Source of the DNA: an uncultured candidate division Zixibacteria bacterium
GTDB lineage: Bacteria; Zixibacteria; MSB-5A5; GN15; FEB-12
Direction of reading: 5' to 3'
Assembly (NCBI GenBank): GCA_963735035.1
Contig: CAVTJJ010000004.1
Coordinates: forward strand, 928,001 to 992,000
Length of the DNA stretch: 64,000 nucleotides
Position 1 is the first letter of the stretch. Each line of letters begins with the position of its first letter. The position numbers and the translations under genes were made by a program. A model generated the notes under the pieces. That model had not been told where the DNA came from. It did not search any database and saw only the letters and a program-made list of their open reading frames with translations. Shown piece after piece: positions 11,978-30,621 of this stretch.

Positions 11978-12089
11978 CCCCGCTCTTTCCGAGTACATCG
12001 TAGAAAGCAGACTCAAGAAATCTGCATATTTTCTAATAAACTGACCGATTATGCTTGACAGCCTAAGTACAATAGGTTATATTAGAACT

Positions 12090-12950
12090 ATGAATAAGCT
12101 GACACGCGAAGAAAGAACCAGAGTGATCGCCGCCCTCGTAGAGGGCAATTCGATCCGCTCTACCGTCCGCATGACCGGAGTCGCTAAGAATACGATAGTC
12201 AAGCTCTTGGCCGAGATTGGTACAGTCTGTGCCGAGTACCATGACCAGACCGTCCGTAACCTGACCTGCAAGAAGGTCCAGTGTGACGAAATATGGTCAT
12301 TCTGCTATGCCAAGCAGAAGAATCTACCCGAAGATAAGCAGGGAGTATTGGGGTTTGGTGACGTGTGGACGTGGACGGCTATCGACCCGGACAGCAAGCT
12401 AATGATTTCATGGTTAATCGGCTGGCGTGACGCCGAATGGGCTACCCGGTTTATGAAAGACGTAGCTTCTCGGCTTGCCAATCGCGTACAGTTGACCACC
12501 GACGGCCACAACGCCTATCTGTCGGCTGTAGATGAAGCCTTTGGTTGCCAAATTGACTACGCTATGCTTGTGAAGTTGTACGGCAAAGAGGGCGGTGAAG
12601 GCCGCTACAGCCCGGCCAAATGTGTCGGAGCTCGTAAGGACAAAGTGACGGGCAAGCCGGACGAACGGCACATATCCACGTCATTCGTGGAGCGTCAAAA
12701 CCTGACCATGCGCATGAGTATGCGGCGATTTACTCGGTTAACCAATGCTTTCTCAAAGAAGATTGAGAACTTGGAGCATTCCGTTGCGCTCCACTTTATG
12801 CACTACAACTTCTGCCGGATACATCAGTCCTTGAGGATGTCCCCCGCTATGGCGGCAGGAGTCACGAAGAAGCTGTGGAATATCGAAGACCTTGTTAAGC
12901 TTCTGGAAGACCGGGAGACCGCTTCCTTAAAAGGAAGTCCGATAGTCTGA
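12090..12950 (+). CDS. IS1-family DDE transposase with N-terminal HTH
   Basis: MNKL...EGNSIRSTVRMTGV HTH; CDEIWSF, TTDG, VERQNLTMR...RRFTRLTNAFSKK motifs; ATG at 12090 follows TTGACA-17-TATATT. Confidence 0.9.
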   Translation: MNKLTREERTRVIAALVEGNSIRSTVRMTGVAKNTIVKLLAEIGTVCAEYHDQTVRNLTCKKVQCDEIWSFCYAKQKNLPEDKQGVLGFGDVWTWTAIDPDSKLMISWLIGWRDAEWATRFMKDVASRLANRVQLTTDGHNAYLSAVDEAFGCQIDYAMLVKLYGKEGGEGRYSPAKCVGARKDKVTGKPDERHISTSFVERQNLTMRMSMRRFTRLTNAFSKKIENLEHSVALHFMHYNFCRIHQSLRMSPAMAAGVTKKLWNIEDLVKLLEDRETASLKGSPIV

Positions 12951-13623
12951 CGAACACGTTTACATTCGGAAGAAGTTCATCTAACTCCTGCTTATTAAGG
13001 CAAAGGGAATGATAATGCCCATGAAGGCCAGAATTACCTAAGGCTGAGTTTGCATGGCATACATCCATGCGATAGCCATATTCTGTAGTTGGCCTAGCAA
13101 AAGTTGATATGAAGAATCTGGGGGGGATCACATCGGGGAACTCGCCCTCTGAGAGTCTACTCGTTCTTTCCAAGCCTTGACCGCCAGTCGCAATTCCTCG
13201 TATCGTTAGGTTTTCGTCTACTGCCAATCGCTTGAGGAGGGCAAGCACATATTCATCACTTTTCCCCCGTCCTAACTTCTTCTGTCGTTGGACAAACCGT
13301 ATTGCATCTCCAAACTCCATATTCGCGGATGGCCTCACCGATTTCCCGCGCAATCTACTTTTGAGTTCTCTGATTACGGAAAACTGATAGCTGACTCCGA
13401 ACAGCAGGCCAATGATTATTAATCCCTGAAACCCACTATGCGGCATAATATACCCCAGCAGGTCGCGAAATATCTGTGGTCCGATGTCCTTGTAGTCCAC
13501 CAACCAAAGCAGCGTCCAAATAACGCTGGGGATAAGGCTTGTAAGGAACCTCGTTATCTGCACGTTGGCTTGAATCCCGTAACTGGATTTTCCATGCCCC
13601 CAATATATGCTTACCCCCCTCAA
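12895..13623 (-). CDS. Hypothetical membrane protein, IS passenger (start uncertain)
   Basis: 242-codon ORF with two hydrophobic segments, convergent with and overlapping the transposase end; visibly more AT-rich than the host genes. Confidence 0.55.
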   Translation of the reverse strand: MRGVSIYWGHGKSSYGIQANVQITRFLTSLIPSVIWTLLWLVDYKDIGPQIFRDLLGYIMPHSGFQGLIIIGLLFGVSYQFSVIRELKSRLRGKSVRPSANMEFGDAIRFVQRQKKLGRGKSDEYVLALLKRLAVDENLTIRGIATGGQGLERTSRLSEGEFPDVIPPRFFISTFARPTTEYGYRMDVCHANSALGNSGLHGHYHSLCLNKQELDELLPNVNVFVRLSDFLLRKRSPGLPEA

Positions 13624-14063
13624 GCATCAATCTGCAATTTCGGACGCTATTGTAGCTCATTCCCGCCCCCTTTTTGAAACTGACCCACTACCAATCATCT
13701 AATTGGCTTGACGAAATTGGTTTTTATTCGTTTCTTTGATATTGAGAAGGACTGAACAATCGCCCCGTTCGATTGTGGCTCCATTCGAGATAGGTCGAAC
13801 CGGCGCTTGGGCTACTTCGCTTTATTGTACACACTAACGAATCACGGCACCGTACAAGTTGCAAATTGATAAGTACGATAGGTTGAACTATCGACAAAAT
13901 GGAATTCAGGCTTTGTCTGACATCAAGAGAGGAGGCGTATCTACCGATTGTGTCTGGTCGACTGTCCGCAACCTGGATCTGATCGGCGCGGCGGGATCTT
14001 TCCGAGCCGTCAGAGGCAGGCGCGCGGAAAACGAGAAGATTTACTCGAAAGGAAATTGGACTA

Positions 14064-17000
14064 ATGAAGCGACTTCTTGTACTGACATCGCTGTCGGCTC
14101 TGTTGCTATTGATGTTGTCCGCCGCGGCAGCCGCTCGTAGCAGCACCAGGGCTGACCTTGAAGACTCCAAACGATCGGCCGATATCGGCCAGTTTAATCT
14201 TGCCGGGTCTCGTCCCTTGATGGGAAAAGAAGAACCGATGTCGTCTAACCACGTCCCGGCTCAAGCCGGTCGAGTGGTCAAACGGCCGGTGGGTAGCTCC
14301 CAGTCTCCCGAGGCCGGCATTGGAGTAGGTGTGAGCGTGGCGCTCACTTTTGACGACGGACAATACGGATTTCCGATCGGCCGCCATGTCAGCCATTACT
14401 GGAATGGCGAGGTAGGCGAGACGGTTCAAGCCGGTGTGCACTTTGCCTATGAACTGTGCTCCGACACCGTGCCCGGCAATGCAATAGCTTCCCCGATCAT
14501 TTCCGGATACAACGTTTACGACGCGACCGTCACCTCAGGCAACTGGCCTCGCGGCCAGGATTTGGGCTGCGGTCTGCAATCGGCCGATACAGCGGGAGCC
14601 GGGAAGTGGGTCAATCTCGACGTTCTGGGGAACCAGAATGCCGTCATGACCGCAACAACTTCCTTCTTCCGCCCCCTCCGGCCGGCGGGCGACAATATGT
14701 TATTCTTTCAGGGGGCTCAGTTCAACTGCACTTACGATCCCCGGACTTCCCTGAACACTACTTTCATTGACTCGACCGTAGCTACCGGTTACCGGGCCAA
14801 CTTCTCCAATCCGGGCGTAGGTAACTACAGCGTCCAGCCCGAGGTTGCCACGCAGTTCAACGGCTCTACTACGATTACGCACGTGCTGATCGGTGAAAGC
14901 GAAACCGTGGCCGGTCCAGCGGGTAACGACTCTTACGTTACCGCTGCGGAGTATCGTATTTTCCAGTACTACCGTAAGACGGGTAATACGTCTGGGGGAA
15001 GCTGGGGCACCGGCAAGATCATTGATAGCGTTATGGATGTGTACGGCACCAACGGGGTCACCCTGGCAACGTCACCCAATTCCGGTAAAGTGTGCGTCTC
15101 ATACTCCAACCCGGGATATTGGGGGTGTCGTCTTGACGGCGATAATGGACAGTACGATACCGATGTCTTTTACCGTGAATCTCTTGACTACGGTCTGACT
15201 TGGAATCCGAAAGTAAACATTACGACGTACCAGAACGCGATCGCAGGCGATCCCAAGCACTACAAGGCCTGGGTCGAATCACCGGCGCTGTACGATGCCA
15301 ACGACGATCTTCATATTATTTGGACCGGCACCCGGACCTCGGCCGATCCTTATTTCGACGGCTACAACTGGAACGATTTCGACACCGATATCTACCACTG
15401 GGCCCGTTCGTCGAATGAAATTGTCAAGTTGGCGAAGGGCACTTACCTGAATGATGACATGCTGACCGGTTCCATCAACACTCTTCATTGCGGTTTTGGC
15501 GGCGTCATGTCAGGGTACATTGCCTTTATCTGGTTGTCGGAATGCGATGGCAAGCTGTATTGCGTCTGGAATCAGATGCACGAGCTGGCCAATCATGGCG
15601 ATTACACTACGACACCTTCTCTCCTCGAGGATTGTGCCTACACCGGCAGTACGCGCAGCAATGCCAACTGGGAGATTATGATGTCGGTCGCTCGCATAAA
15701 TTCTAGTTCGTTGTGGGATGCCGCCCGCCACGTTTCTGGAGCCGGAGCCGGAACTCATACTCCGAATTGCGGTCTGGCGGGTGATCCGCTGGCCGTCGGT
15801 GGCCAGTGTGGTAACGAATTCAAGCCTTCGGTCGAAAAGTATGGCTTGGATGAGACCGGTCTGGGTTTGACCTGGCCGGCCGCCTCGAAGGTTGACTTGA
15901 CCCCCGCGGGTCAGCCGGCCTACACCGGCGACTTCTACTTGAATATGGAGTACATGGACGATCAGTTCCCCGGATATTTTGTACAGGACCTGAACGGACG
16001 AAACGATGTCGGAACACTCAACTCCGAAAAGTGGGTCCGGTTGGCCTGTGTGAACCCGGTGGAAGCCTCTCAGATCAACATTTCTCCGAAGAGGCTGGAA
16101 TGGCCGCTGTGGGTGGCGCTTAATGCCAGCAATAACCTGACCATCACGGTTGTCAATGAGGGAAACGTCACGCTCAACGTTACCGAAATTGGGACCGCCG
16201 GCGGAAGCTGGCTGGACGTGAGTCAGCATCCCACCACAGGCAGCCCGTTCCAGGTTCCTGCGGGTGTTAACAACACCGCCAGCTTTGATGTGGTTGTCAA
16301 TGCGACTGGTATATCTCAAACCCAGTGGCTTGATGGCCAGGTCTGGCTGAAGTCGGATGCCGCCAACAATGACTCAATGGTGGTGCCGATTCATATTCTG
16401 GCCGCCGACAATGTCGAAGCGGTTCGCTGGGATACTGTAATGACCCACGCCAACATGTTTGACGAATTCTACGAGCCCACCGGCGAATGTATCGCTCTTG
16501 CGGTCGGTAACCTGGGCGAAGTCGGCTATGGTGCTTTCAGTCAAGGCAGTGTAAATCTTGACTACGCTGAGTCAGGCTTGGAATGTGGCACTCGCGCGCG
16601 TGACAAGCAGTACCTTATGAGTGGGACGGCCTTTACTCTTCTGGCGACCAATTCCTCGGGAGCCGGCGCCGAATTGACGACGGCATTCAACGATCCGAAT
16701 CAGGCAGACGAGGCCGGGTTCGATCCGACATCCGCCAAGGGTTCCATCGGCGGCGGTCTGGCCGTCACCGGTGACTATGACTCTACCTACACCGGTCGGT
16801 TTGTAAACAAGGATACGACTATCGCCATGGAGCGGACTGTGTACGGTCCTCGGTTGACACCGTCCAATTCAGTTATCAATTTCATGGTTGTGTATACCAA
16901 GGTGTATTCGGCCGATGGCTTAGGCCACAATCACCTGACGGTTGGAAACGCCTGCGACTTCGACGTTCCGGCCGATAGCCCGCCGAACAACAACTCGGCG

Positions 17001-17774
17001 GTCTCGACAACCGGTGGATTCGTGTACTTTCAGGGTACCGACACTACCGGAGGTACACCCTGCCAGACGAACTTGAACCGCTTCGCGACCGAAGCGTTTG
17101 GCGGCGGTTACACATCGGCCGAGTTGACCGGCAGCCCGTGCGCCAATAACACGACATTCTACGGCTCCAATTCGCTGTATCAGTTGATAATGGAGGACAC
17201 CACTCATCTCCGGAATGGTACTCCGCTGGTGCCGAGTCAGCCGAACCCGCTGGTCTGGTGGGCCGAAACCGGTATCGGCGGTACTAACGCTTCCGCACTC
17301 CAGGACACTGACCTGGCGTTGATCACGACCTACGTTCGGGATTATAACCTGGGCGCATCCGATACCCTGCACTACTGGACAATCCTGTCCACCGTGCGCA
17401 ATGGCACACTGGCCAATCTGGAGAGCCAGGTTGCCTACGCCAAGAGCTGGTATATGGGCACGGTTCGTGATTGTTTTGGCCCACCGCCTTGCTGCACGGA
17501 AAGAGTCGGCAACGCTAACGGTACTGGCGGCGAGACTCCGACGATCGGTGACATCAGCGTGATGATCGATGCCAAGTTCATCACGGGTGCCTGTATCGGC
17601 TCCGGTGCGGGCGCCAACATCGTTTGTCTAGGTGAAGCTGACATGAACCTGTCCGGTGGTCAACACCCGACCTGTGGATCCATTACGATCGGTGACATTT
17701 CGCTGTTGATCGACTGTCTGTTCATTACAGGCGAGCCGCCGTTCGTTCGCAGCACCTGTATGTCAATAGACTAA
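14064..17774 (+). CDS. Large secreted/surface protein, paralog 1 (Asp-box propeller-like region, Ig-like domain, dockerin-like tail)
   Basis: RBS GAAAGGA; signal peptide; Asp-box RESLDYGLTW; ITVVNEGNVTLNV...WL Ig/BACON-like pattern; C-terminal dockerin-like duplication. Confidence 0.85.
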   Translation: MKRLLVLTSLSALLLLMLSAAAAARSSTRADLEDSKRSADIGQFNLAGSRPLMGKEEPMSSNHVPAQAGRVVKRPVGSSQSPEAGIGVGVSVALTFDDGQYGFPIGRHVSHYWNGEVGETVQAGVHFAYELCSDTVPGNAIASPIISGYNVYDATVTSGNWPRGQDLGCGLQSADTAGAGKWVNLDVLGNQNAVMTATTSFFRPLRPAGDNMLFFQGAQFNCTYDPRTSLNTTFIDSTVATGYRANFSNPGVGNYSVQPEVATQFNGSTTITHVLIGESETVAGPAGNDSYVTAAEYRIFQYYRKTGNTSGGSWGTGKIIDSVMDVYGTNGVTLATSPNSGKVCVSYSNPGYWGCRLDGDNGQYDTDVFYRESLDYGLTWNPKVNITTYQNAIAGDPKHYKAWVESPALYDANDDLHIIWTGTRTSADPYFDGYNWNDFDTDIYHWARSSNEIVKLAKGTYLNDDMLTGSINTLHCGFGGVMSGYIAFIWLSECDGKLYCVWNQMHELANHGDYTTTPSLLEDCAYTGSTRSNANWEIMMSVARINSSSLWDAARHVSGAGAGTHTPNCGLAGDPLAVGGQCGNEFKPSVEKYGLDETGLGLTWPAASKVDLTPAGQPAYTGDFYLNMEYMDDQFPGYFVQDLNGRNDVGTLNSEKWVRLACVNPVEASQINISPKRLEWPLWVALNASNNLTITVVNEGNVTLNVTEIGTAGGSWLDVSQHPTTGSPFQVPAGVNNTASFDVVVNATGISQTQWLDGQVWLKSDAANNDSMVVPIHILAADNVEAVRWDTVMTHANMFDEFYEPTGECIALAVGNLGEVGYGAFSQGSVNLDYAESGLECGTRARDKQYLMSGTAFTLLATNSSGAGAELTTAFNDPNQADEAGFDPTSAKGSIGGGLAVTGDYDSTYTGRFVNKDTTIAMERTVYGPRLTPSNSVINFMVVYTKVYSADGLGHNHLTVGNACDFDVPADSPPNNNSAVSTTGGFVYFQGTDTTGGTPCQTNLNRFATEAFGGGYTSAELTGSPCANNTTFYGSNSLYQLIMEDTTHLRNGTPLVPSQPNPLVWWAETGIGGTNASALQDTDLALITTYVRDYNLGASDTLHYWTILSTVRNGTLANLESQVAYAKSWYMGTVRDCFGPPPCCTERVGNANGTGGETPTIGDISVMIDAKFITGACIGSGAGANIVCLGEADMNLSGGQHPTCGSITIGDISLLIDCLFITGEPPFVRSTCMSID

Positions 17775-17832
17775 GCATGTCTCTTGACTGAAGTTGAGCT
17801 GGCGAAATCGCTGATTTCGCCGGCCATGAATA

Positions 17833-17867
17833 AGCGGCCATCCCACATAGGGATGGCCGCTCTTTTT
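17833..17867 (+). terminator. Intrinsic terminator after paralog 1
   Basis: AGCGGCCATCCC-ACATA-GGGATGGCCGCT-CTTTTT. Confidence 0.85.
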
Positions 17868-17999
17868 GTGATAGCCGGCCATAAGCGGTCACTGCAATTT
17901 GGTTTTGTCGGTATTCTGGCTCTTCAACCAGAGACTTTTTCCACACGGTACGAACCCTCGCAGTGAGCGAAATTCCATCCCCCGGGGTAGATTAAGTGC

Positions 18000-18028
18000 T
18001 TGACAAACAGGCTCTTAGATGCCATTAT
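18000..18028 (+). promoter_or_regulatory. Sigma70-type promoter for paralog 2
   Basis: TTGACA-17 nt-CATTAT with an extended TG; conserved in the second copy at 22393. Confidence 0.65.
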
Positions 18029-18033
18029 TACAT

Positions 18034-18335
18034 AGTAGGTTCTCAATTGTTATGACACCTTCGCACTGCTTCGGAAGGACCTCGGAAGAGGTTAGGCCGG
18101 TCCTTGTCCATCTTTGCCTTGCCACCCTGTCTTCAGGGATCCACGGCTGACTAATTCATATATCGGACTAATATGCTGAGTCTTGCGACCCGCCGTCGCG
18201 AGGCCGGCTTTAGAATGCTGGAATACTGCTTTATTGGACACGCCAGCCATTGACGCTCCGTCGGCTAACGCCTCGGAAGAAAATTGGTGGGTCTTAATGA
18301 TAGTTGGACGAGTGAACCATTTATCGAGGAGGTAA
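18034..18335 (+). ncRNA. Candidate structured 5'-leader RNA, copy 1 (no family recognised)
   Basis: Near-identical to 22427-22729; several hairpins plus a long-range helix 18044-18052/18298-18306 that is preserved by compensatory changes in copy 2. Confidence 0.55.
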
Positions 18336-18471
18336 TCCACACGAGGAGAGTAACGACTGCGCGGGACAGGCAGACACCTCGGAGTTGCCGCGTGGGAAGA
18401 TCAACTGGGGTAGGTTTCAGTGTCCAAGACACTGAAGCTGGAATAGGCTAATCTCTTGAAAGGAAACTAGC

Positions 18472-21400
18472 ATGACGAGAAAAGCACTAATTACGTTGTG
18501 CGTAGCAGTGCTGTTGACCGGGTTGCTGACTTTGTCGGCGTGGGCGGCCACGAATACTAAGGTCGACATTGCTGACGGCAAGCAGCTCGACAAGATTAAC
18601 AGCTTCAATGTTGGTCCATATCCGATGGAAGACCGTGCGGCCTTCGAAGAAGATGTGGCATTGCAAAGCACGGCTTCTTCTTCTGGCGCCCTCCGCGTAC
18701 CGGTCGGTTCGGCCGCTTCGCCGAACGTTGGCACCGGTGTGGGCGTCAGCATCGACCTGACCTGGCATGACGCGCAGTGGACTCGTGGCCAAGGTCGCCA
18801 GATCGCTCACTGGTGGAACGGCGCTACCGATGAAACCGCCGAAGTGAGCGTTCATTTTGCTTACATGACTATGCCGGATAGCCTCGAAACCACCGCCCCG
18901 TATACCAACACCGGCTACAACGTGTATGACGCCACGGTGACGTCGGGTAACTGGCCGCGCGGCCAGGATATCGGCTGCGATCTGCAGTCGGCTGACACGA
19001 TCGGACAGGCTGTCGCCGCAAGCATGGATATGACGTATAACGGTCGCGCCGTCATTGCTTCACAGGGCCAACATTTCCGCACCAAAGCCTCCGGTGCCGG
19101 TGCCGGCACACGTCTGAGCAGTAACTTCATCTACTATCAGGGTTCCGAATTCAACTGCACTTACGATCCGCGTTCGAATTTGAACGTTACCTGGATTGAT
19201 TCTACTGTCTACCGGCCGTTGTTCCTGGATCAGACCGCCGGGAGTTATTCGCGTGAGCCTCAGGTCAAGACACAGTGGGATGGCACCAATACGGTTGTGC
19301 ACCTGCTGTTGGGCGAGAATACTGCCGGTGTCACCCTGACCGGTGATGCCTACGCCGATGATCTCTCTTCATACAAGACCTGGAGTTACTTCCGCAAGGT
19401 CGGCAATACGTCCGCCGGTACCTGGAGTTCAGGCCAGATAATTGACTCGATCTGGTTCTCATGGACAGAACTTGCCGCTGCGGCATACCCGAATACAGGT
19501 GTGGCGGTGGTTTATGTCAACCCGTCGTACTACGGGTGTCTGCTTAACAACGGCGCCGATTTGGATGTCTGGGCTCGTGAGTCGTTCAACCGTGGTGTGA
19601 CCTGGCAGCCGGCCTATAGTGTTACCAACTACACCAACGCTATCGCCGGAGACCCGAATCACTTTACTTGCTGGTTGGAAGCCGGTTGTATGTTCGACAG
19701 TGAGGGTGACCTTCATGTTTACTGGACGGCCAAGCCGACCTCGGCCGATCCGTATTTCGACGGCTTTAACTGGAGTGATTTCGACGAGAACCTGTATCAC
19801 TGGGAAAAGACCAACGATGGCGCTGTCCCGGGTATTGGCGATGCCGTCAAGGTTGCCAATGGCAACTTCATGAACGACGACATGCTGACCGGTTCGATGA
19901 ACACCTTCCATTGTGGTTTTGGCGGCAGTAACGCTGGTTACCTCGCCTTCTCTACGATGGGTGAGTGCGATGGCAAGTTGTATATGGTCTGGTCGCAGAT
20001 TCACGAGCGTGCCAACCGGATGGCTTGGCGCAACGCTGCGACGCAGCCGGCTCCGGGCGTCCTGGACGACTGCTCCTACACGGGCAATCGGTATGCCATG
20101 GCCAACTGGGAGATCTTGATGTCGGTGGCTCAGCTCGGTTCTTCCACTCTGTGGGACGCCGCGCGTAACATCACCAACACCTATACTCCGAACTGCGGTT
20201 TGGCGGGCGATCCCGATGCCCAGGGGCCATGCGGTTCCGAATGGAAACCGTCAATTGAGCGTCAGGCCCTCGATGAGACCGGTCTGACTCTGACCTGGCC
20301 GGTCGCGGCCGCAGTCGACATGTCCCCGACGCACGACTATGCTGCTGGTCATTACTTGAACATGGAATATATGGACGACCAGTACCCAGGCCCGACCAAC
20401 TGGAGCGATCGCACCAATCCTCCTTCCACTCTGAACTCTGAGAAGTGGGTTCGTCTGGCCTGCGTGGAGCCGGTTGAGGCTTCGCAGATTAACGTAATTC
20501 CTAAATCAGTAGCGTGGCCGCAGTGGGTGGAGCTTGGCACGACCAAGAACTTTACCATTACGGTCGTGAACGACGGTAACGTGACTTTGAACGTTACTGA
20601 GATCGGCACGGCGGGCGGTTCCTGGCTGGGTGTGTCACAGCATCCGACAATCGGCAGCCCGTTCGCGGTAACGGCCGGTGTGGTTCGCACCCGGACGTTC
20701 GACTTGATTGCCAATGCCACCGCGCTGTCTTCGACCCAGTGGCTGGACGGCGAGATCTGGTTGAAGTCTGATGCCGCCAACAGCGATTCAATTTCGGTCG
20801 CGATTCACCTCCTGGCTGCGGCCAATGTCGAGGCCACGAAGTGGGATACGGTTACGACCCATGCCTATATGTTCGACGCGTTCTTTGAGCCGGCAGGCGC
20901 CTGCGTAGCTCTGGGCGTTGGTAACGACGGTGACCTCGGATGGGGTGCCGGAACCAGCGGAAGTATCAATCTTGATTATCGGGAATCCAATCTCGAGTGC
21001 GGAACCCGCCAGCGCGACGCCATGTATTTGGCGAGCGGCTCGGCCTTTACCTTGATGGCAACCAGTTCGACTGGTACCGGCGCGGAATTGACTCAGGTCA
21101 CAAACGACGCCAACCAGGCGGACGAAACCGGTTTCGACCCGACCCCGGAAAAGACCATGACCGGCGGTCTGGCGGCGAGCGGCAAGTACGACTCGACTTA
21201 CACGGGTAAGTTCGTGAACCGTGACACGACCATCGCTTTTGAGCGGGTAGTGTACGGTCCGCGTTCTGCCACTCCGGCAACTTCCACCATCAATTTCGTG
21301 ATTGTCCACACCTGGGTCTATTCGGCTGACGGTGCGGCCCACAATCACGTCACCATTGGTGATGTTCGTGACTGGGACGTCCCGGCCGACAGCGTTCCGC

Positions 21401-22185
21401 TGAACACGACCGGTGTTTCCAGTGCTGGTTTCGTTTACGTACAGGGTACTGACACGGTTCTTCACACTGCGTGTCAGACGAACTTGAACCGGTTTGCCAC
21501 TGAGGCTTTTGGTGGCGGTTACACCAAGGCTCAGTTCAATGCCGACCCGTGCGCGAACGATTCCACCGGCTATTTTGGTTTCAGCGCAGCCGACCAGTTG
21601 ATCATGGTCGACACGACGCATTATCGCAATGGCACGCCTCTCGTCCCGGTCCAGCCGGATCCGTCTCGTTGGTGGGATGTGACGAAGGTGCCGGGCCTGA
21701 ACGCCGATGCTTCGACTCAGGATCAGGCCGTCTGGTTGACCTACAAGCAGGATTACAACTTGTTGGCCAGCGACACGCTGCACTATTGGACCGTTATGAC
21801 TACGGTTCGCAATGGTTCGTTGTCTGATCTGGAAGCTCAGGTTGCGTATGCCAAGAACTGGTACAAGGAAATTCGAGGCTGCGTACCCATAAATCCGGCC
21901 TGCTGTATAGGGAAGGTCGGCAACGCCAACGGTACAGGCGGCGAGACTCCGACGATCGGTGACATCAGCGTGATGATCGATGCCAAGTTCATCACGGGTG
22001 CCTGTATTCCTTCGGGTCCGGGTGCCAACATCGTTTGTCTAGGTGAAGCTGACATGAACCTGTCCGGTGGACTTCACCCGACCTGTGGATCCATTACGAT
22101 CGGTGACATTTCGCTGTTGATCGACTGTCTGTTCATTACAGGCGAGCCGCCGTTCGTTCGCAGCAACTGTATGTCGGTGGACTAG
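18472..22185 (+). CDS. Large secreted/surface protein, paralog 2
   Basis: RBS GAAAGGA; signal peptide; Asp-box-like RESFNRGVTW; same architecture as paralogs 1 and 3. Confidence 0.85.
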   Translation: MTRKALITLCVAVLLTGLLTLSAWAATNTKVDIADGKQLDKINSFNVGPYPMEDRAAFEEDVALQSTASSSGALRVPVGSAASPNVGTGVGVSIDLTWHDAQWTRGQGRQIAHWWNGATDETAEVSVHFAYMTMPDSLETTAPYTNTGYNVYDATVTSGNWPRGQDIGCDLQSADTIGQAVAASMDMTYNGRAVIASQGQHFRTKASGAGAGTRLSSNFIYYQGSEFNCTYDPRSNLNVTWIDSTVYRPLFLDQTAGSYSREPQVKTQWDGTNTVVHLLLGENTAGVTLTGDAYADDLSSYKTWSYFRKVGNTSAGTWSSGQIIDSIWFSWTELAAAAYPNTGVAVVYVNPSYYGCLLNNGADLDVWARESFNRGVTWQPAYSVTNYTNAIAGDPNHFTCWLEAGCMFDSEGDLHVYWTAKPTSADPYFDGFNWSDFDENLYHWEKTNDGAVPGIGDAVKVANGNFMNDDMLTGSMNTFHCGFGGSNAGYLAFSTMGECDGKLYMVWSQIHERANRMAWRNAATQPAPGVLDDCSYTGNRYAMANWEILMSVAQLGSSTLWDAARNITNTYTPNCGLAGDPDAQGPCGSEWKPSIERQALDETGLTLTWPVAAAVDMSPTHDYAAGHYLNMEYMDDQYPGPTNWSDRTNPPSTLNSEKWVRLACVEPVEASQINVIPKSVAWPQWVELGTTKNFTITVVNDGNVTLNVTEIGTAGGSWLGVSQHPTIGSPFAVTAGVVRTRTFDLIANATALSSTQWLDGEIWLKSDAANSDSISVAIHLLAAANVEATKWDTVTTHAYMFDAFFEPAGACVALGVGNDGDLGWGAGTSGSINLDYRESNLECGTRQRDAMYLASGSAFTLMATSSTGTGAELTQVTNDANQADETGFDPTPEKTMTGGLAASGKYDSTYTGKFVNRDTTIAFERVVYGPRSATPATSTINFVIVHTWVYSADGAAHNHVTIGDVRDWDVPADSVPLNTTGVSSAGFVYVQGTDTVLHTACQTNLNRFATEAFGGGYTKAQFNADPCANDSTGYFGFSAADQLIMVDTTHYRNGTPLVPVQPDPSRWWDVTKVPGLNADASTQDQAVWLTYKQDYNLLASDTLHYWTVMTTVRNGSLSDLEAQVAYAKNWYKEIRGCVPINPACCIGKVGNANGTGGETPTIGDISVMIDAKFITGACIPSGPGANIVCLGEADMNLSGGLHPTCGSITIGDISLLIDCLFITGEPPFVRSNCMSVD

Positions 22186-22226
22186 AATCGACCTCGCAAA
22201 GTCTTTGACTTTGTAGGGTGTGAATA

Positions 22227-22261
22227 AGCGGCCATCCCACATAGGGATGGCCGCTCTTTTT
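22227..22261 (+). terminator. Intrinsic terminator after paralog 2
   Basis: Same hairpin and U-tract as 17833-17867. Confidence 0.85.
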
Positions 22262-22392
22262 GTGCCAACCGGTACGGAGCGCTATCTGAAATCAGGTTCC
22301 GTCGGTATTCCAGTACTTCACACAGAAATATTTTCCACACGGTTCGAACCCGCGTGGCGAGCGGAATTCCAGCCTCTGGATAGATTAAGTGC

Positions 22393-22421
22393 TTGACAAA
22401 CAGGCCGGTAGATGCCATTCT
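22393..22421 (+). promoter_or_regulatory. Sigma70-type promoter for paralog 3
   Basis: TTGACA-17 nt-CATTCT with an extended TG; the spacer differs from copy 1 while the boxes are kept. Confidence 0.65.
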
Positions 22422-22426
22422 TAAGC

Positions 22427-22729
22427 AGTAGGTTCTCGATTGTTTTGACACCTTTGCGCTGCTTCAGAAGGACCTCAGAAGAGGTTAGGCCGGTCCCTGT
22501 CCATCTTTGCCTTGCCACCCTGTCTTCAGGGATCCACGGCTGACTAATTCATATATCGGACTAATATGCTGAGTCTTGCGACCCGCCGTCGCGAGGCCGG
22601 CTTTAGAATGCTGGAATACTGCTTTATTGGACACGCCAGCCATCGACCCTCCGTCGGCTAGTGCCACCGGAAGAAAAATTGGTGCGTCTTAAGGACAGTT
22701 GGACGAGTGAACCTTTAGCGAGGAGGTAA
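22427..22729 (+). ncRNA. Candidate structured 5'-leader RNA, copy 2
   Basis: Near-identical to 18034-18335; long-range helix 22437-22445/22693-22701. Confidence 0.55.
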
Positions 22730-22865
22730 TTCACGCCCTTAGAGTAACATGACTCGTGATGCCAGGTGTTAATTTGCAGGCATCCGTGAGGTATTCAAAA
22801 GGAGAATAGGTTCTCGCGTCTGGAGTGCGGGGACTAAAATCAGCTAATCTTGAAAGGAAACGAGC

Positions 22866-25800
22866 ATGACGAGGAAAGCACTACTTACGTTGTGCGTAGC
22901 GGTGCTGTTGTCAGGGTTGCTGACTTTGTCGGCATGGGCGGCCACGAATACTAAGGCCGATATCGCTGACAGCAAGCAGCTCGATATGATTAACAGCTTC
23001 AATGTCGGTCCGTATCCGGTTGAGTATCGGCAAGCCACCACTGAGATGGGCTTGGAGCCCGTCACCCCGGCCTCTGGCGCTATTCGCATGCCGGTCGGTT
23101 CGGCCGCTTCGCCGAACGTCGGCACCGGTGTGGGCGTCAGTATCGATCTGACCTGGGACGATGCCCAGTGGACCTGGGGCAAGGGCCGCCAGATTGCTCA
23201 CTGGTGGAACGGCGCTACCGATGAAACCGCCGAAGTGAGCGTTCACTTTGCTTATCGGGCCAGCCCGGACACTGTCACCGGATATCCGTTTGGAAATACC
23301 GGCTACAACGTGTACGACGCTACCGTGACGTCGGGTAACTGGCCGCGCGGCCAGGACATCGGCTGCGATCTTCAGTCGGCCGATACCCTGGGTACCGGCA
23401 GCAGCCCGAGTATGGACGTGACCTTCAACGGTCGTGCCGTAATTGGCACCCTGGCTACGCATTTCCGCAGCATCGGCACTGACCGTCTGTATGATAACTT
23501 CATTTACTATCAGGGTTCCGAATTCAACTGCACTTACGATCCCCGTTCGAACCTGAACGTTACCTGGGTCGATTCGACTATGTATCGGCCGCTCATGATG
23601 CAGAACGTTGCGGGTACCTACTCGCGCGATCCGATAGTCAAGACTCAGTGGGATGGAACTAATACGATCACTCATTTGCTCCTGGGTGAAAACGTGGCTG
23701 AAGCCACCAATTTGACCGGTGATGCTTACGTAACCGATCTCGGCTACTATACCTGGACTTATTTCCGCAAAGTCGGCAATACGTCCGCCGGTACCTGGAC
23801 CAACGGCCGGATCATCGACTCGATCTGGTTTGTGTGGACGGAACTGGCTGCCGCCCCGTACCCGAATACGGGCGTGGCGGTGGTTTACACCAACCCGACG
23901 TACTATGGCGCGCTGTTGGAAAACGGCGGTGACATGGACGTCTGGGCTCGCGAGTCGTACGACCGTGGTATTAACTGGGCGCCTTCTTACAGCGTTACCA
24001 AGTACACCAACGCCCTGGCCGGTGATCCGAACCACTTTACGGCCTGGTTGGAAGCCGGCTGTATGTTCGACAGTGAAGGCGATCTTCACGTTTACTGGAC
24101 GGCCAAGCCGACCTCGGCTGATCCGTATTTCGATGGCTTCAACTGGAATGATTTCGACGAGAATCTGTATCACTGGGAAAAGACCAACGACGCTGCCGCC
24201 GTGGGCCTGGGCGATGCCGTCAAGGTTGCCAATGGCAACTTCATGAATGACGACATGCTGACCGGTTCGATGAACACCTTCCATTGTGGTTTTGGCGGAA
24301 GTAACGTTGGTTACCTCGGTTACTCCACGATGGGTGAGTGCGATGGCAAGTTGTATCTGGTCTGGTCGCAGATTCACGAGCGTGCCAATCGGTACCCGTG
24401 GCGCGACGCTGCGACGCAACCGGCTCCGGGCGTACTGGACGACTGCTCCTACACGGGCAATCGGTATGCCATGGCTAACTGGGAGATCTTGATGTCGGTG
24501 GCTCAGATCGGTTCTTCCACCCTGTGGGACGCCGCGCGCAACATCACCAACACCTATACTCCGAACTGCGGTTTGGCGGGCGATCCCGATGCCCAGGGAC
24601 TATGCGGTTCCGAATGGAAACCGTCGATCGAGCGTCAGGCTCTTGATGAGACCGGTCTGACTCTGACCTGGCCGGTCGCGGCCGCAGTCGACATGTCCCC
24701 GACGCACGACTATGCTGCTGGTCATTACTTGAACATGGAATATATGGACGACCAGTTCCCAGGTCCGTACGCTTGGGGGACGGGACGTACCAATCCTCCC
24801 GGTACTCAGAACTCTGAGAAGTGGATTCGTCTGGCTTGCGTCGAGCCGGTTGAGGCTTCGCAGATCGACGTAATGCCGGAGAACATCGCGTGGCCGCAGT
24901 GGGTGGAGCTTGGCACGACCAAGAACTTTACCATTACGGTCGTGAACGACGGTAACGTGACTTTGAACGTTACTGAGATCGGCACGGCGGGCGGTTCCTG
25001 GCTGGGTGTGTCACAGCATCCGTCGGTTGGCAGCCCGTTCACGGTGACGGCCGGTGTGGTTCGCACCCGGACGTTCGACTTGATCGCCAATGCCACCGCG
25101 TTGTCTTCGACTCAGTGGCTTGATGGCGAGATCTGGTTGAAGTCTGATGCCGCCAACATCGATTCAATTGCGGTCAAGGTTCACATCCTGGCCGCGGCCA
25201 ATGTTGAGGCCACGAAGTGGGATACGGTTACGACCCACGCCTATATGTTCGATGCGTTCTTTGAACCGGTAGGCGCTTGCGTAGCTCTGGGCGTTGGTAA
25301 CGACGGTGACCTCGGATGGGCCGCCGGAACCAGCGGAAGTATCAACCTTGATTATCGGGAATCCGGTCTCGAGTGCGGTACTCGTCAACGCGACGCGATG
25401 TATTTGTCGAGCGGCTCGACCTTTACCTTGATGGCGACCAGTTCGACTGGAACCGGCGCCGAGTTGACGCAGGTCACGGGCGACGCCAACCAGGCGGACG
25501 AAACCGGTTTCGACCCGACCCCGGAAAAGACCATGACCGGCGGTCTGGCGGCGAGCGGCAAGTACGACTCGACTTACACGGGTAAGTTCGTGAACCGTGA
25601 CACGACCATCGCTTTTGAGCGGGTAGTGTACGGTCCGCGTTCTGCCACTCCGGCAACTTCCACCATCAATTTCGTGATTGTCCACACCTGGGTCTATTCG
25701 GCTGACGGTGCGGCCCACAATCACGTCACCATTGGTGATGTTCGTGACTGGGACGTCCCGGCCGACAGCGTTCCGCTGAACACGACCGGTGTTTCCAGTG

Positions 25801-26561
25801 CTGGTTTCGTTTACGTACAGGGTACTGACACGGTTCTTCACACTGCGTGTCAGACGAACTTGAACCGGTTTGCCACTGAGGCTTTTGGTGGCGGTTACAC
25901 CAAGGCTCAGTTCAATGCCGATCCTTGCGCGAACGATTCCACCGCCTATTTTGGTTTCAGCGCAGCCGACCAGTTGATCATGGTCGACACGACGCATTAT
26001 CGCAATGGCACGCCTCTCGTCCCGTTCCAGCCGGATCCGTCTCGTTGGTGGGATGTGACGAAGGTACCGGGCCTGAACGCTGATGCCTCGACTCAGGATC
26101 AGGCCGTCTGGTTGACCTACAAGCAGGATTACAACTTGTTGGCCAGCGACACGCTGCACTATTGGACCGTTATGACTACGGTTCGCAATGGTTCGTTGTC
26201 TGATCTGGAAGCTCAGGTTGCGTATGCCAAGAACTGGTACAAGGAAATTCGAGGCTGCGTACCCATAAATCCGGCCTGCTGTATAGGGAAGGTCGGCAAC
26301 GCCAACGGTACTGGCGGCGAGACTCCGACGATCGGTGACATCAGCGTGATGATCGATGCCAAGTTCATCAGCGGTGCCTGTATATCTTCGGGTCCGGGTG
26401 CCAACATCGTTTGTCTAGGTGAAGCTGACATGAACCTGTCCGGTGGACTTCACCCGACCTGTGGATCCATTACGATCGGTGACATTTCGCTGTTGATCGA
26501 CTGTCTGTTCATTACAGGCGAGCCGCCGTTCGTTCGCAGCACCTGTATGTCAATAGACTAA
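22866..26561 (+). CDS. Large secreted/surface protein, paralog 3
   Basis: RBS GAAAGGA; signal peptide; Asp-box RESYDRGINW; long stretches identical to paralog 2. Confidence 0.85.
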   Translation: MTRKALLTLCVAVLLSGLLTLSAWAATNTKADIADSKQLDMINSFNVGPYPVEYRQATTEMGLEPVTPASGAIRMPVGSAASPNVGTGVGVSIDLTWDDAQWTWGKGRQIAHWWNGATDETAEVSVHFAYRASPDTVTGYPFGNTGYNVYDATVTSGNWPRGQDIGCDLQSADTLGTGSSPSMDVTFNGRAVIGTLATHFRSIGTDRLYDNFIYYQGSEFNCTYDPRSNLNVTWVDSTMYRPLMMQNVAGTYSRDPIVKTQWDGTNTITHLLLGENVAEATNLTGDAYVTDLGYYTWTYFRKVGNTSAGTWTNGRIIDSIWFVWTELAAAPYPNTGVAVVYTNPTYYGALLENGGDMDVWARESYDRGINWAPSYSVTKYTNALAGDPNHFTAWLEAGCMFDSEGDLHVYWTAKPTSADPYFDGFNWNDFDENLYHWEKTNDAAAVGLGDAVKVANGNFMNDDMLTGSMNTFHCGFGGSNVGYLGYSTMGECDGKLYLVWSQIHERANRYPWRDAATQPAPGVLDDCSYTGNRYAMANWEILMSVAQIGSSTLWDAARNITNTYTPNCGLAGDPDAQGLCGSEWKPSIERQALDETGLTLTWPVAAAVDMSPTHDYAAGHYLNMEYMDDQFPGPYAWGTGRTNPPGTQNSEKWIRLACVEPVEASQIDVMPENIAWPQWVELGTTKNFTITVVNDGNVTLNVTEIGTAGGSWLGVSQHPSVGSPFTVTAGVVRTRTFDLIANATALSSTQWLDGEIWLKSDAANIDSIAVKVHILAAANVEATKWDTVTTHAYMFDAFFEPVGACVALGVGNDGDLGWAAGTSGSINLDYRESGLECGTRQRDAMYLSSGSTFTLMATSSTGTGAELTQVTGDANQADETGFDPTPEKTMTGGLAASGKYDSTYTGKFVNRDTTIAFERVVYGPRSATPATSTINFVIVHTWVYSADGAAHNHVTIGDVRDWDVPADSVPLNTTGVSSAGFVYVQGTDTVLHTACQTNLNRFATEAFGGGYTKAQFNADPCANDSTAYFGFSAADQLIMVDTTHYRNGTPLVPFQPDPSRWWDVTKVPGLNADASTQDQAVWLTYKQDYNLLASDTLHYWTVMTTVRNGSLSDLEAQVAYAKNWYKEIRGCVPINPACCIGKVGNANGTGGETPTIGDISVMIDAKFISGACISSGPGANIVCLGEADMNLSGGLHPTCGSITIGDISLLIDCLFITGEPPFVRSTCMSID

Positions 26562-29562: not shown

Positions 29563-30621
29563 GTGAGAAGATCCGTTATTGGTGTATTACTCACTTTTGT
29601 ATTCGCGGCGGCAACGACAGTCGCCTCAGGCTACGAAGTTACCAAAGTAATTGAGATCGGTCCGGCTGTGCCTCTCTTGACTGGGGGTGCGCTCAAGTGG
29701 AGCCCCGACGGTACCATGCTGGCGTATTTCGCGAACAACTACCTGATGGTCTCAGACACGCTGGGGAATAGCCGCCAGGTGGTTGGCACAGAAGGACTTA
29801 CTCCCATGCGCGCCGAATGGGCGTCAAACAATGAGTTTGCGGTGAATCTGGCGAATCGTGAGGACACCGACTCGATGCTGTATCGTCTTGTCGTATATGA
29901 CATCGTGAGTGGCTCTCAGAGGTTGGTGCGGGAATGTTGGAGGACACGATGGAGCCTGCTTCCTGGCCACAGCGGCTTTGATGGCCCCTATGTCACGATG
30001 GAGGGTAACGCCTATTATGAGGAAGTCGTGATTTCCGGACTTGAGGAAGGAGAACTCAAGGAGAAGCTCAAGAGCACGGTTGTTAACAAAACCAAGACTC
30101 CTTTGTCATCGGCCAAGGGGATCTCAGAGGTGCTGGCAAGTAATCACCTACAGGTCTGGGGGAAGGATGGCCTTTACTCTGTGAATTGGGCTGGCGCAGA
30201 TTCGACGCAGCTTTCTTCCGAGGACGCTAGCGGTGCGCTCAAGGTTGGTATCACAGCGTCACCAGACCGCACTTGGATCTTCAGACGCGGCCGCCTCATG
30301 AACAGAATTACGCACGATACAATTGATGTTAGACAATTTACAGGAAGTGTGCCGGCGGGCACCGATTTGTGTGGATACAGCCGGATAAGCTTCAATCCGC
30401 GTTCTGAAGAGATTCTCTTTCAGCACTATTGTGAAAGTGGAGATACTCTTGTGATCGACAGGATTGCCACTTTCGATTATTCCAGCAAAGTGTTTGCTTT
30501 GCTTGATACTCTGACAGGCATCGAAGGAGGTACGTCTCCGGTTTATGCACCGGATGGGCGGATGATTTCCTTCTGTGCCCGTGGCAAGGCTTATATCATC
30601 TGGCGTGGGGTGACGCCATGA
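29563..30621 (+). CDS. Secreted TolB-like/PD40 beta-propeller protein
   Basis: RBS GGGAGG and GTG start; signal peptide; WSPDG..LAY and [12 protein letters not shown] repeats. Confidence 0.7.

What the first reader, a model, noticed from the sequence alone, without database searches (positions are those of the whole stretch)
18000..18335. Duplicated ~290-nt structured leader RNA with compensatory changes upstream of paralogs 2 and 3
Seen: after a TTGACA-17-CATT(A/C)T promoter, 18034-18335 and 22427-22729 are near-identical, then diverge for about 135 nt before the start codon, while total leader length stays about 437 nt. A long-range helix closes the element. Copy 1 pairs CAATTGTTA (18044) with TGATAGTTG (18298); copy 2 pairs CGATTGTTT (22437) with GGACAGTTG (22693). 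The changes A-U to G-U, G-U to G-C and A-U to U-G all keep pairing. The helix is extended by GGTTC/GAACC and GAC-ACC/GGT-NN-GTC. Internal hairpins are ACCTC-RGAA-GAGGT, CCCTG-TCTT-CAGGG, CTTGCGAC/GTCGCGAG and CCGGC/GCTGG. I recognise no riboswitch or housekeeping RNA here. Inference: a novel cis-regulatory or mRNA-stabilising RNA for abundant surface proteins, or a processed ncRNA.
Basis: partly seen in the sequence, partly recalled or inferred. Interest (0 to 1): 0.8.

Follow-up and report, generated by a model that had tools for sequence, protein, structure and literature searches.

The report
Long leader with decoy ribosome site
The duplicated stretch is the front part of an unusually long untranslated leader that a whole family of large secreted-protein genes carries, and its best-conserved feature is a strong ribosome-binding sequence with no gene behind it, which probably stabilises the message.

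Summary
Promoter plus leader occurs twice (18000-18355 and 22393-22748, 91% identical), upstream of tandem paralogs. The near-identity reflects recent tandem duplication or gene conversion. The whole 4.4-kb units are mosaics with 100%-identical coding blocks. The leader segment that is 100% identical between copies (18116-18175) is only 37-53% identical in the one more distant homolog, L054. In L054 the proposed closing helix loses 5 of 9 pairs. Only the CTTGCGAC/GTCGCGAG hairpin keeps all pairs with compensation. There is no Rfam match.

The stretch is the promoter-proximal two thirds of a ~440-nt 5' UTR shared by this gene family (29 leaders, several genera). Its features:
- TTGACR at -430..-570 in 23/29.
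- An RCUUUAUUGAAC island near -245.
- A strong Shine-Dalgarno-like AAGGAGGU at -126..-169 in 23/29, with a start codon behind it in only 2/25.
- AGAGUAAC, then two covarying hairpins (89.7% paired against 74.3% shuffled), then the true RBS.

I read it as a ribosome-docking, mRNA-stabilising leader of the STAB-SD type. The organism has no detectable RNase J. No RNA data were available, so function is inferred.

The parts
17833..17869 (+). Intrinsic terminator of paralog 1 (12-bp stem, loop of 5, T-run). It shows that paralog 2 is its own transcription unit.
   Evidence: 90% identical to the copy at 22227-22263
18000..18028 (+). Sigma-70-type promoter, copy 1 (TTGACA-17-CATTAT)
   Evidence: 10 of 12. 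A TTGACR box lies at -430..-570 in 23 of 29 homologous leaders.
18036..18325 (+). The start is inferred from the promoter; the transcription start is not mapped.
   Evidence: It is 93% identical to copy 2 and 67% identical to L054.
18182..18221 (+). Two adjacent hairpins of the 5' domain (CTTGCGAC/GTCGCGAG and CCGGC/GCTGG). These are the only reader hairpins kept in L054.
   Evidence: 8 of 8 and 4 of 5 pairs kept in L054
18228..18239 (+). Conserved island GCTTTATTGGAC (family consensus RCUUUAUUGAAC), about 245 nt before the ATG
   Evidence: Invariant core in 9 of 9 sequences; present at -225..-275 in 19 of 29 leaders from several genera; coordinates
18306..18312 (+). Conserved island GGACGAG
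   Evidence: 8 of 9 sequences in A2
18326..18338 (+). Shine-Dalgarno-like site GAGGAGGTAATCC, 144 nt before the ATG, with no start codon behind it. Proposed 30S docking site.
18348..18354 (+). Conserved GAGTAAC box
   Evidence: 9 of 9 sequences in A2; also present in other genera
18357..18395 (+). Leader hairpin 1, copy 1
   Evidence: Helix 3 of model R1 has two-sided changes in 7 of 7 pairs and 82% of cells paired.
18413..18439 (+). Leader hairpin 2, copy 1
   Evidence: Helix 4 of R1 has two-sided changes in 11 of 11 pairs and 89.4% of cells paired.
18458..18474 (+). True ribosome-binding site GAAAGGAAA and the ATG of paralog 2
22227..22263 (+). Intrinsic terminator of paralog 2
22393..22421 (+). 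Promoter, copy 2 (TTGACA-17-CATTCT)
   Evidence: not listed by the scanner
22429..22719 (+). 5' domain of the leader, copy 2, with the island at 22621-22632 and GGACGAG at 22701-22707
22720..22868 (+). 3' module, copy 2: SD-like GAGGAGGT 22720-22727, GAGTAAC 22742-22748, hairpin 1 at about 22753-22790, hairpin 2 at 22809-22835, RBS 22852-22860, ATG 22866
13708..14066 (+). Leader of paralog 1, built on the same plan but with diverged sequence: TTGACG 13708, island GCTTTATTGTAC 13819-13830, SD-like GAGGAGGC 13929-13936, CGATTGT 13945-13951, RBS 14047-14055

Best explanation
The 290-nt stretch is not a free-standing RNA element. It is the promoter-proximal two thirds of a ~440-nt 5' untranslated leader that precedes each member of a family of ~1,200-residue secreted proteins with a dockerin-like C-terminus. 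The organism is most likely a Zixibacterium.

The two copies are nearly identical because the whole gene-plus-intergenic unit was duplicated in tandem and partly homogenised by gene conversion.

The leader plan is old and shared across genera: promoter, variable 5' hairpins, an AU-rich island RCUUUAUUGAAC, GGACGAG, a very strong Shine-Dalgarno-like site about 140 nt before the ATG, AGAGUAAC, two hairpins, and then a weaker true RBS.

Proposed mechanism (inferred, not shown): a 30S subunit docks on the upstream Shine-Dalgarno-like site without starting translation. Together with the flanking hairpins, it shields the mRNA from 5'-end-dependent attack and so raises the yield of these proteins. 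This is how the STAB-SD stabiliser of Bacillus thuringiensis cry3A works. Here the nuclease that is blocked would have to be RNase E/G or RNase Y, because no RNase J gene was found. The AU-rich island fits the RNase E core motif and may be where the long primary leader is cut.
For: Duplication:
- The units are mosaic, with 100%-identical coding blocks of up to 400 nt.
- 18116-18175 is 100% identical between the copies but 37-53% identical to L054.
- The p3-L054 5' domain is 68% identical, against 62% at third codon positions.

Separate transcription units: strong terminators at 17833 and 22227, and a promoter at 18000.

Family-wide plan:
- There are seven paralog loci in the genome. Protein homologs occur in 19 of 61 family genomes.
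- In 29 leaders, TTGACR lies at -430..-570 in 23. GGAGG lies at -185..-105 in 23, against 5 of 116 other 80-nt leader windows.
- The islands are invariant in 9 of 9 aligned leaders, and the AU-rich island is present in 19 of 29.

The Shine-Dalgarno-like site:
- The 16S 3' end reads GGATCACCTCCTTTCT. Many leaders match its complement over 10-12 nt.
- The predicted duplex with the 16S tail has a median of -15.0 kcal/mol, against -9.8 for the true RBS. It is the stronger of the two in 25 of 29 leaders.
- The organism uses ordinary SD sites 3-9 nt before starts elsewhere in the genome.
- Only 2 of 25 leaders have ATG, GTG or TTG 4-12 nt behind the site; the chance of this per window is 0.41.
- The site has no consistent intramolecular partner.

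Hairpins:
- Covariance model R1 finds the 3' module in 23 of 108 family genomes. All 10 full-length new hits end at an ATG followed by an MT(K/R)K-type (one MINK) signal peptide.
- In 28 leaders, 89.7% of cells pair, against 74.3% in shuffles (0 of 500 shuffles reach this) and 36-55% when the partner is slid. Two-sided changes occur in 23 of 24 pairs.
- The 3' module has a mean z of -1.70.

Precedent: the cry3A leader has a -558 primary and a -129 stable 5' end, with a non-translating SD-like site that binds the 30S subunit (PMC4113751, section 3.2, passages read). The RNase E core motif is RN|WUU (PMC5222698, passages read).
Against: - There are no transcript data at all. The transcription start, any processing site, the half-life and even expression are unknown (no RNA run was listed; see Tried and rejected).
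- RNase J, the enzyme that STAB-SD blocks, was not found: 24 bits against a cut-off of 400, in a genome 97% complete.
- Predicted accessibility of the SD-like site is not high. Mean unpaired probability is 0.30, against 0.40 for the whole leader.
- 6 of 29 leaders lack GGAGG in the expected window.
- The covariation counts were made on alignments fitted to the model, and related sequences inflate the shuffle test.
- The role proposed for the AU-rich island rests on a 5-nt motif defined in Salmonella.
- The 5' domain itself shows little sign of selection for structure (mean z -0.56), and it evolves almost as fast as third codon positions.
Confidence: 0.5

Rival explanations
1. Ribosome standby or recruitment site. 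The strong upstream Shine-Dalgarno-like site loads 30S subunits, which are then handed to the weaker true RBS. It would raise translation rather than, or as well as, mRNA stability.
For: The upstream site is predicted to bind the 16S tail more strongly than the true RBS in 25 of 29 leaders. It has no start codon behind it in 23 of 25. Its distance from the ATG is conserved at -126..-169.
Against: Two stable, conserved hairpins lie between the site and the RBS. The true RBS is not predicted to be sequestered: its mean unpaired probability is 0.47, against 0.40 for the leader. A standby site is therefore not obviously needed. Nothing here separates this reading from stabilisation.
Confidence: 0.17
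2. The 290-nt 5' domain has no function of its own. It is fast-drifting spacer carried along with a duplicated gene, and only the promoter and the last ~250 nt matter.
For: - The p2-p3 identity of 100% at 18116-18175 falls to 37-53% in L054.
- The 5' domain is 68% identical between p3 and L054, against 62% at third codon positions.
- Mean z is -0.56 in 17 leaders.
- The p4 paralog (86% protein identity) shares only the last ~145 nt with p2.
- No blastn match to the 5' domain was found in 40 relatives.
Against: Leader length is conserved, with TTGACR at -430..-570 in 23 of 29 leaders. The 3' third of the domain is conserved in L054: hairpins at 18182-18221, the AU-rich island and GGACGAG are 73-87% identical, and the islands are found in other genera.
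Confidence: 0.15
3. One reading: a discrete structured RNA closed by a long-range helix, acting as a riboswitch-like sensor or released as a processed non-coding RNA.
For: All proposed pairs form in both copies. The closing helix appears in the minimum-energy fold of copy 1. There is no known family at this position. One hairpin covaries in L054.
Against: - The closing helix loses 5 of 9 pairs in L054, and two inner hairpins lose 2 of 5 each.
- The helix is absent from the fold of copy 2.
- Energy z-scores are ordinary.
- RNAalifold finds no consensus structure in the 5' domain of 9 leaders.
- No terminator lies inside the leader.
- No conserved partner sequesters either Shine-Dalgarno site.
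Confidence: 0.08
4. The conserved island is a DNA or RNA signal for processive antitermination (ops/RfaH-like or LoaP-like), needed to transcribe 3.7-kb genes.
For: A 12-15-nt island is conserved at a fixed place in a long leader of long genes.
Against: Only one NusG-family gene was found in the genome, so there is no specialised paralog. The genes are monocistronic, each with its own terminator.
Confidence: 0.04
5. The upstream Shine-Dalgarno site drives a short upstream ORF (leader peptide).
For: It is a strong SD-like site. In p3, L054 and one same-genus leader, an ATG follows GAGTAAC.
Against: - Only 2 of 25 leaders have a start codon 4-12 nt behind the site.
- The ATG after GAGTAAC lies about 20 nt away and is absent from p2 and p4.
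- By inspection, the 32-codon frame that starts at 18052 differs between p2 and p3 by four amino-acid-changing substitutions and one silent one. By inspection, it has no start in L054.
Confidence: 0.03

Closest known systems
STAB-SD 5' mRNA stabiliser of the Bacillus thuringiensis cry3A leader (Agaisse and Lereclus 1996; as summarised in PMC4113751, section 3.2)
   Same: - A long primary leader: 558 nt there, about 440 nt here.
- A Shine-Dalgarno-like sequence about 130-145 nt before the start codon.
- The sequence is complementary to the 16S 3' end.
- It does not start translation.
- The gene product is presumably made in large amounts.
   Different: - A different phylum.
- No RNase J gene is detectable here, so a different nuclease must be blocked.
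- The site is embedded in a larger conserved module (GGACGAG, AGAGUAAC, two hairpins) that STAB-SD does not have.
- Its position relative to the stable 5' end is unknown.
- No experiment has been done here.
Long 5' UTRs of S-layer protein genes (Lactobacillus acidophilus and L. crispatus slpA)
   Same: A long untranslated leader before a gene for a secreted surface protein. In slpA the leader forms a stabilising secondary structure and gives long mRNA half-lives (PMC3666127, section 5, passage read).
   Different: There is no sequence relation. The slpA effect is ascribed to a 5' stem-loop, not to a decoy ribosome site. That the proteins here form a surface layer or are abundant is not shown.
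Ribosome standby sites (for example tisB). This comparison is recalled and was not checked in a paper here.
   Same: 30S binding far upstream of the true RBS in a structured leader.
   Different: Standby sites serve an RBS that is locked in structure and need not be Shine-Dalgarno-like. Here the RBS is not predicted to be locked.
Rfam families
   Same: None reached threshold.
   Different: There were 0 matches at gathering score in the whole window. The four matches at E 0.8-9.6 in 13400-23000 lie elsewhere and are far below their cut-offs.

Membership tests
STAB-SD-type 5' mRNA stabiliser | A Shine-Dalgarno-like sequence in the 5' UTR, far upstream of the start codon and complementary to the 3' end of 16S rRNA | tested here: met
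   The 16S tail was read. The site lies at -126..-169 in 23 of 29 leaders. The median duplex energy is -15.0 kcal/mol, against -9.8 for the true RBS.
STAB-SD-type 5' mRNA stabiliser | The site does not direct translation initiation | tested here: met
   Tested in silico only. A start codon lies 4-12 nt downstream in 2 of 25 leaders, with 0.41 expected per window.
STAB-SD-type 5' mRNA stabiliser | The site lies at the 5' end of the major stable transcript, which derives from a longer primary transcript | not testable with these tools
   No RNA run was listed.
STAB-SD-type 5' mRNA stabiliser | Protection works by blocking the 5'-to-3' exonuclease RNase J1 | tested here: not met
   The best match to TIGR00649 scores 24 bits against a cut-off of 400, in a genome 97% complete. 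RNase Y (711 bits) and RNase E/G (485 bits) are present.
STAB-SD-type 5' mRNA stabiliser | Removing the site shortens mRNA half-life | not testable with these tools
   This needs an experiment.
   This applies to the 5' domain. The closing helix loses 5 of 9 pairs in L054. There is no consensus structure in 9 leaders. Mean z is -0.56. Only three type-A sequences exist, so the test is thin.
   No terminator-like site lies in 18030-18471 on the + strand. Neither SD site has a consistent partner.
Any Rfam family | A score at or above the family's gathering threshold | tested here: not met
ops/RfaH-type antitermination leader | A specialised NusG paralog in the genome | tested here: not met
   One PF02357 match only.
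S-layer gene stabilising 5' UTR | A long 5' UTR before a gene for an abundant secreted surface protein | tested here: inconclusive
   The long leader is inferred from the conserved promoter distance. The protein has a signal-peptide-like N-terminus. Its C-terminal domain recurs in 63 further matches in the genome, and the nearest Atlas cluster carries Dockerin_1 in 32% of members. Abundance and S-layer formation are unknown.

The most novel reading that the evidence does not exclude
A phylum-restricted, roughly 150-250-nt leader RNA family. A 'super' Shine-Dalgarno decoy of up to 12-15 nt complementary to the 16S tail parks a 30S subunit upstream of two conserved hairpins. This would be a STAB-SD-like stabiliser that evolved independently outside the Firmicutes, in a lineage without RNase J. 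It would imply that a parked ribosome can also block RNase E/G or RNase Y. The conserved RCUUUAUUGAAC island would be the dedicated processing site that creates the protected 5' end.
Probability: 0.3. Interest if true: 0.6.

Novelty: new variant of a known kind. Interest (0 to 1): 0.45.

Why it matters
If the reading holds, decoy ribosome-binding sites that stabilise mRNA are not a peculiarity of Bacillus and its RNase J. They would be a more general way to protect long messages, here in an uncultured phylum about whose gene expression almost nothing is known.

The reading also gives a concrete, testable leader module for a large family of secreted dockerin-like proteins: the site, two hairpins and an AU-rich island. 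Such a module could be used to find highly expressed surface proteins in metagenomes.

For the scan itself, this is a caution. Two near-identical copies inside a tandem array cannot show covariation.

Tried and rejected
- Rfam: gathering thresholds on the whole window and permissive E-values on 13400-23000 gave nothing relevant.
- RNA evidence: no RNA holder was listed for 17800-18800.
- blastn of the leader against 40 relatives found only a 51-nt match around the SD-like site in one same-genus genome.
- An exact-pattern scan of genome contigs (GGACGAG..AGGAGGT..GAGTAAC) returned 12 stretches. Only one (L061) is followed by a homolog; the rest look like chance.
- RNAalifold on MAFFT alignments found no consensus structure in the 5' domain of 9 leaders, or between the AU-rich island and the SD-like site in 19 leaders.
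- Predicted accessibility of the island, the SD-like site and the RBS was unremarkable.
- A fixed -35/-10 pairing of the SD-like site with the CGATTGT motif was rejected because their spacing varies.
- I inspected the sequences by eye and rejected a sigma-70 promoter at the TTGAAC of the island, because no -10 box is shared (alignment).
- Extended complementarity of the leader to the 16S strand beyond GGAUC was considered. I left it as unproven, because it needs a 4-nt gap and that rRNA strand is paired in the ribosome. The point about the paired strand is recalled.
- Pfam and NCBIfam gave no family for the protein.
- Leaders not used in the 29-leader counts:
  - G018 and G073c, where the start codon could not be placed.
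  - Loci L028-L030, L032, L034-L037, L041, L045 and L046, where the protein match did not reach the N-terminus.
  - L056 and L059, which have an ambiguous N-terminus or a short flank.
  - L019 and L038 duplicate p2 and p3.
- Literature searches for Zixibacteria with 'Shine-Dalgarno' and with 'UTR' found 0 papers each in the held library. A broader search was uninformative.

Full report
**What is at the coordinates.**
- The window holds three tandem genes of 1,236, 1,237 and 1,231 codons: 14064-17774, 18472-22185 and 22866-26561.
- The products have no Pfam or NCBIfam family.
- Paralogs 1 and 2 each end in a strong intrinsic terminator, at 17833-17861 and 22227-22255 (12-bp stems followed by a T-run).
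- A promoter, TTGACA-17-CATTAT, sits at 18000-18028. The second copy, TTGACA-17-CATTCT, is at 22393-22421.
- The stretch from the promoter onward occurs exactly twice in the 3.6-Mb genome, at 91% identity over 355 nt. A third match, 73% identical, covers only the last 145 nt before the ATG of another paralog, p4.

**Why the two copies are alike.**
- I aligned the whole repeat units, from stop codon to stop codon. They form a mosaic.
- Identity is 90% over the terminator, 66-84% around the promoter and 96-100% in the middle of the leader.
- It falls to 40-68% in the last 135 nt of the leader and to 46-90% in the N-terminal third of the gene.
- The C-terminal half of the gene is mostly 92-100% identical, including 400 nt without a single difference.
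- The first 500 codons are 79% identical, and 65% at third positions, while the 5' domain of the leader is 93% identical.
- This pattern is what tandem duplication followed by patchy gene conversion gives.
- A metagenome contig, L054, provides the deciding control. It carries a homolog of the entire leader at 68% identity. The segment 18116-18175 is 100% identical between the window's two copies but only 37-53% identical to L054. By contrast, 18176-18264 and 18293-18321 are 73-87% identical to L054.
- Overall, the 5' domain of copy 2 is 68% identical to L054, little more than third codon positions of the adjoining gene at 62%.

- All listed pairs form in both copies. Of the three 'compensatory' changes, only one is two-sided.
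- In L054 the following pairs are broken:
  - closing helix: 5 of 9
  - GGTTC/GAACC extension: 2 of 5
  - ACCTC/GAGGT: 2 of 5
  - CCCTG/CAGGG: 2 of 5
- In L054 the following are kept:
  - CTTGCGAC/GTCGCGAG: 8 of 8, with one two-sided and three one-sided changes
  - CCGGC/GCTGG: 4 of 5
  - GAC-ACC/GGT-GTC: 6 of 6, almost without variation
- The closing helix is part of the minimum-energy fold of copy 1 but not of copy 2. The folds are not unusually stable, with z of -1.13 and -1.87.
- Across 17 homologous leaders, the 5' domain has a mean z of -0.56.
- RNAalifold finds no consensus structure there in nine leaders.
- Rfam has no match.

**The wider family.**
- The genome has seven paralog loci, one of them split.
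- Protein homologs occur in 19 of 61 genomes sampled from the same family, often in tandem.
- A public record titled Candidatus Zixiibacteriota carries both the gene and the leader (L061). The window is therefore most likely from that phylum.
- I took the upstream DNA of every homolog whose N-terminus could be placed. That gave 29 leaders: 6 from this genome, 8 from two same-genus genomes, 11 from other genera and 4 from metagenomes. The rows that were dropped are listed under Tried and rejected.
- These leaders share a plan:
  - TTGACR at -430..-570 in 23 of 29.
  - GGAGG at -185..-105 in 23 of 29, against 5 of 116 other 80-nt leader windows.
  - A true RBS, YCGAAAGGAAAC, at -14.
- Nine leaders that align well show further invariant blocks: GCTTTRTTGRA, GGACGAG (8 of 9), AGGAGGT and GAGTAAC.
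- The AU-rich island (consensus RCUUUAUUGAACRCG) is found at -225..-275 in 19 of 29 leaders from several genera.
- Paralog 1 in the window looks unrelated by eye, yet it has the same landmarks.

**The Shine-Dalgarno-like site.**
- The genome's 16S rRNA ends in GGATCACCTCCTTTCT.
- The organism uses ordinary AAGGAGGT sites 3-9 nt before many start codons.
- The leader site reads GAGGAGGTAATCC in the two copies (18326-18338). In other genera it reads up to GAAAGGAGGTGA, 12 contiguous complementary bases.
- Its predicted duplex with the 16S tail has a median of -15.0 kcal/mol. The true RBS gives -9.8, and the best of the other 80-nt leader windows gives -10.6. It is the stronger in 25 of 29 leaders.
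- Only 2 of 25 leaders have ATG, GTG or TTG 4-12 nt behind it, where about 41% would by chance. The binomial P is 3e-4, but related sequences are not independent.
- Its most probable intramolecular partner differs from leader to leader. This fits conservation for a partner in trans.
- Its predicted accessibility is not high, at 0.30 against 0.40 for the whole leader.

- Two hairpins lie between the site and the RBS. Their sequences differ between the copies, but their positions do not.
- I built a covariance model of this 154-position module from nine leaders. It finds the module in 23 of 108 genomes of the family at E <= 0.01.
- Of the 21 places that were neither in the model's training set nor already known, 10 are full-length and end exactly at an ATG followed by an MT(K/R)K-type (one MINK) signal peptide. 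For 8 of these, homology of the downstream gene is confirmed; the other 2 loci end too early.
- The other 11 places are not next to a homolog. Nine are short partial alignments, and I take all 11 as false.
- In a sample of the phylum, hits at E <= 0.001 occur in 5 of 54 genomes of this family and in 1 of 10 of a sister family (that hit is not next to a homolog). There were none in 86 genomes of 17 other families.
- On the 28 leaders that adjoin homologs:
  - 89.7% of cells pair, against 74.3% in shuffles (0 of 500 shuffles reach this).
  - 36-55% of cells pair when the partner is slid.
  - 23 of 24 pairs show two-sided changes.
- The uncleaned set of 40 gives the same picture.
- These alignments are fitted to the model, which favours it.
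- The module has a mean energy z of -1.70.

**Mosaic leaders.**
- Copy 2 and L054 share both halves of the leader: 68% in the 5' domain and 77% in the 3' module.
- The 3' module of copy 1 is 46% identical to that of copy 2. By BLAST it matches paralog p4 best, at 73% over 147 nt.
- The breakpoint lies near the Shine-Dalgarno-like site, so leaders have been recombined between paralogs.

**Mechanism.**
- The closest precedent is STAB-SD of the cry3A leader. There, a -558 primary transcript is trimmed to a stable -129 species. Its 5' end is protected by a 30S subunit bound to a non-translating Shine-Dalgarno-like site, which blocks RNase J1 (PMC4113751, section 3.2, passages read).
- The geometry here is very similar. 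However, no RNase J gene was found (24 bits against a cut-off of 400). RNase Y and RNase E/G are present.
- I therefore propose the same principle acting against a different nuclease: a parked 30S subunit plus hairpins as obstacles to 5'-end-dependent decay. That bound ribosomes hinder RNase E is recalled knowledge, not checked here.
- The island begins R-C-U-U-U, which fits the RNase E core motif RN|WUU (PMC5222698, passages read). It could be the processing site. This rests on five bases and is the weakest link.
- Long stabilising 5' UTRs are also known for S-layer genes of lactobacilli (PMC3666127, section 5, passage read).
- A standby role in translation cannot be separated from stabilisation with these data.
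- An antitermination signal is unlikely, because there is only one NusG-family gene.
- A leader peptide is unlikely.

**Verdict.**
The inference drawn from it, a novel structured RNA shown by compensatory changes, is not carried by the evidence, because the two copies are a recent duplicate pair.
- What is really there is an undescribed, family-wide long leader. Its best-supported parts are a decoy ribosome-binding site and two covarying hairpins.
- Function is inferred. No transcript data could be obtained (see Tried and rejected).
- Searches of the held library for Zixibacteria together with 'Shine-Dalgarno' or 'UTR' found no paper.

Noticed in passing
window 21850-22185 and the same region of the other paralogs; also 11021-11464 and 32778-33038: The last ~95 residues of the paralogs form a domain with two GDIS..ID..FITG-like repeats. 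It recurs in 63 further matches across the genome. The nearest Atlas cluster carries Dockerin_1 in 32% of its members. It looks like a widely used C-terminal anchoring or sorting module.
   Followed up: partly
window 13945-13951; leaders of other paralogs (L011, L040, L049-L052, L022, L023, L033, L055): A CCGATTGT motif sits 56-75 nt before the ATG, between the two leader hairpins, in 11 of 29 leaders. In paralog 1 it lies at -119. It is absent at that place from p2, p3 and p4. Its function is unexplained.
   Followed up: partly
window 30524-30531, before ORF 30618-33041: Another AAGGAGGT lies 86 nt before the start of an 807-codon ORF that also ends in the dockerin-like domain. Decoy ribosome sites may not be limited to the one paralog family.
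   Followed up: no
window 18621-19370 compared with 23010-23760: The N-terminal third of paralogs 2 and 3 is far more diverged (46-90% per 50 nt) than the C-terminal half, which is mostly 92-100% identical. This pattern is expected if an exposed domain diversifies while gene conversion homogenises the rest.
   Followed up: no
window 12051-12950: This ORF of 299 codons has weak DDE transposase matches (IS240 and IS1 families, both below the curated cut-offs). It lies just upstream of the paralog array.
   Followed up: no
G000:C4:908252-911832 (outside the window): A seventh paralog is split into two adjoining frames, covering residues 31-1075 and 1076-1234. It is possibly a frameshifted pseudogene. 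Its leader is short and lacks the long-leader plan.
   Followed up: no
whole genome: GGAGG occurs 4,097 times on both strands. By my rough estimate from base composition, this is about half the number expected, as in genomes that avoid internal Shine-Dalgarno-like sites.
   Followed up: no
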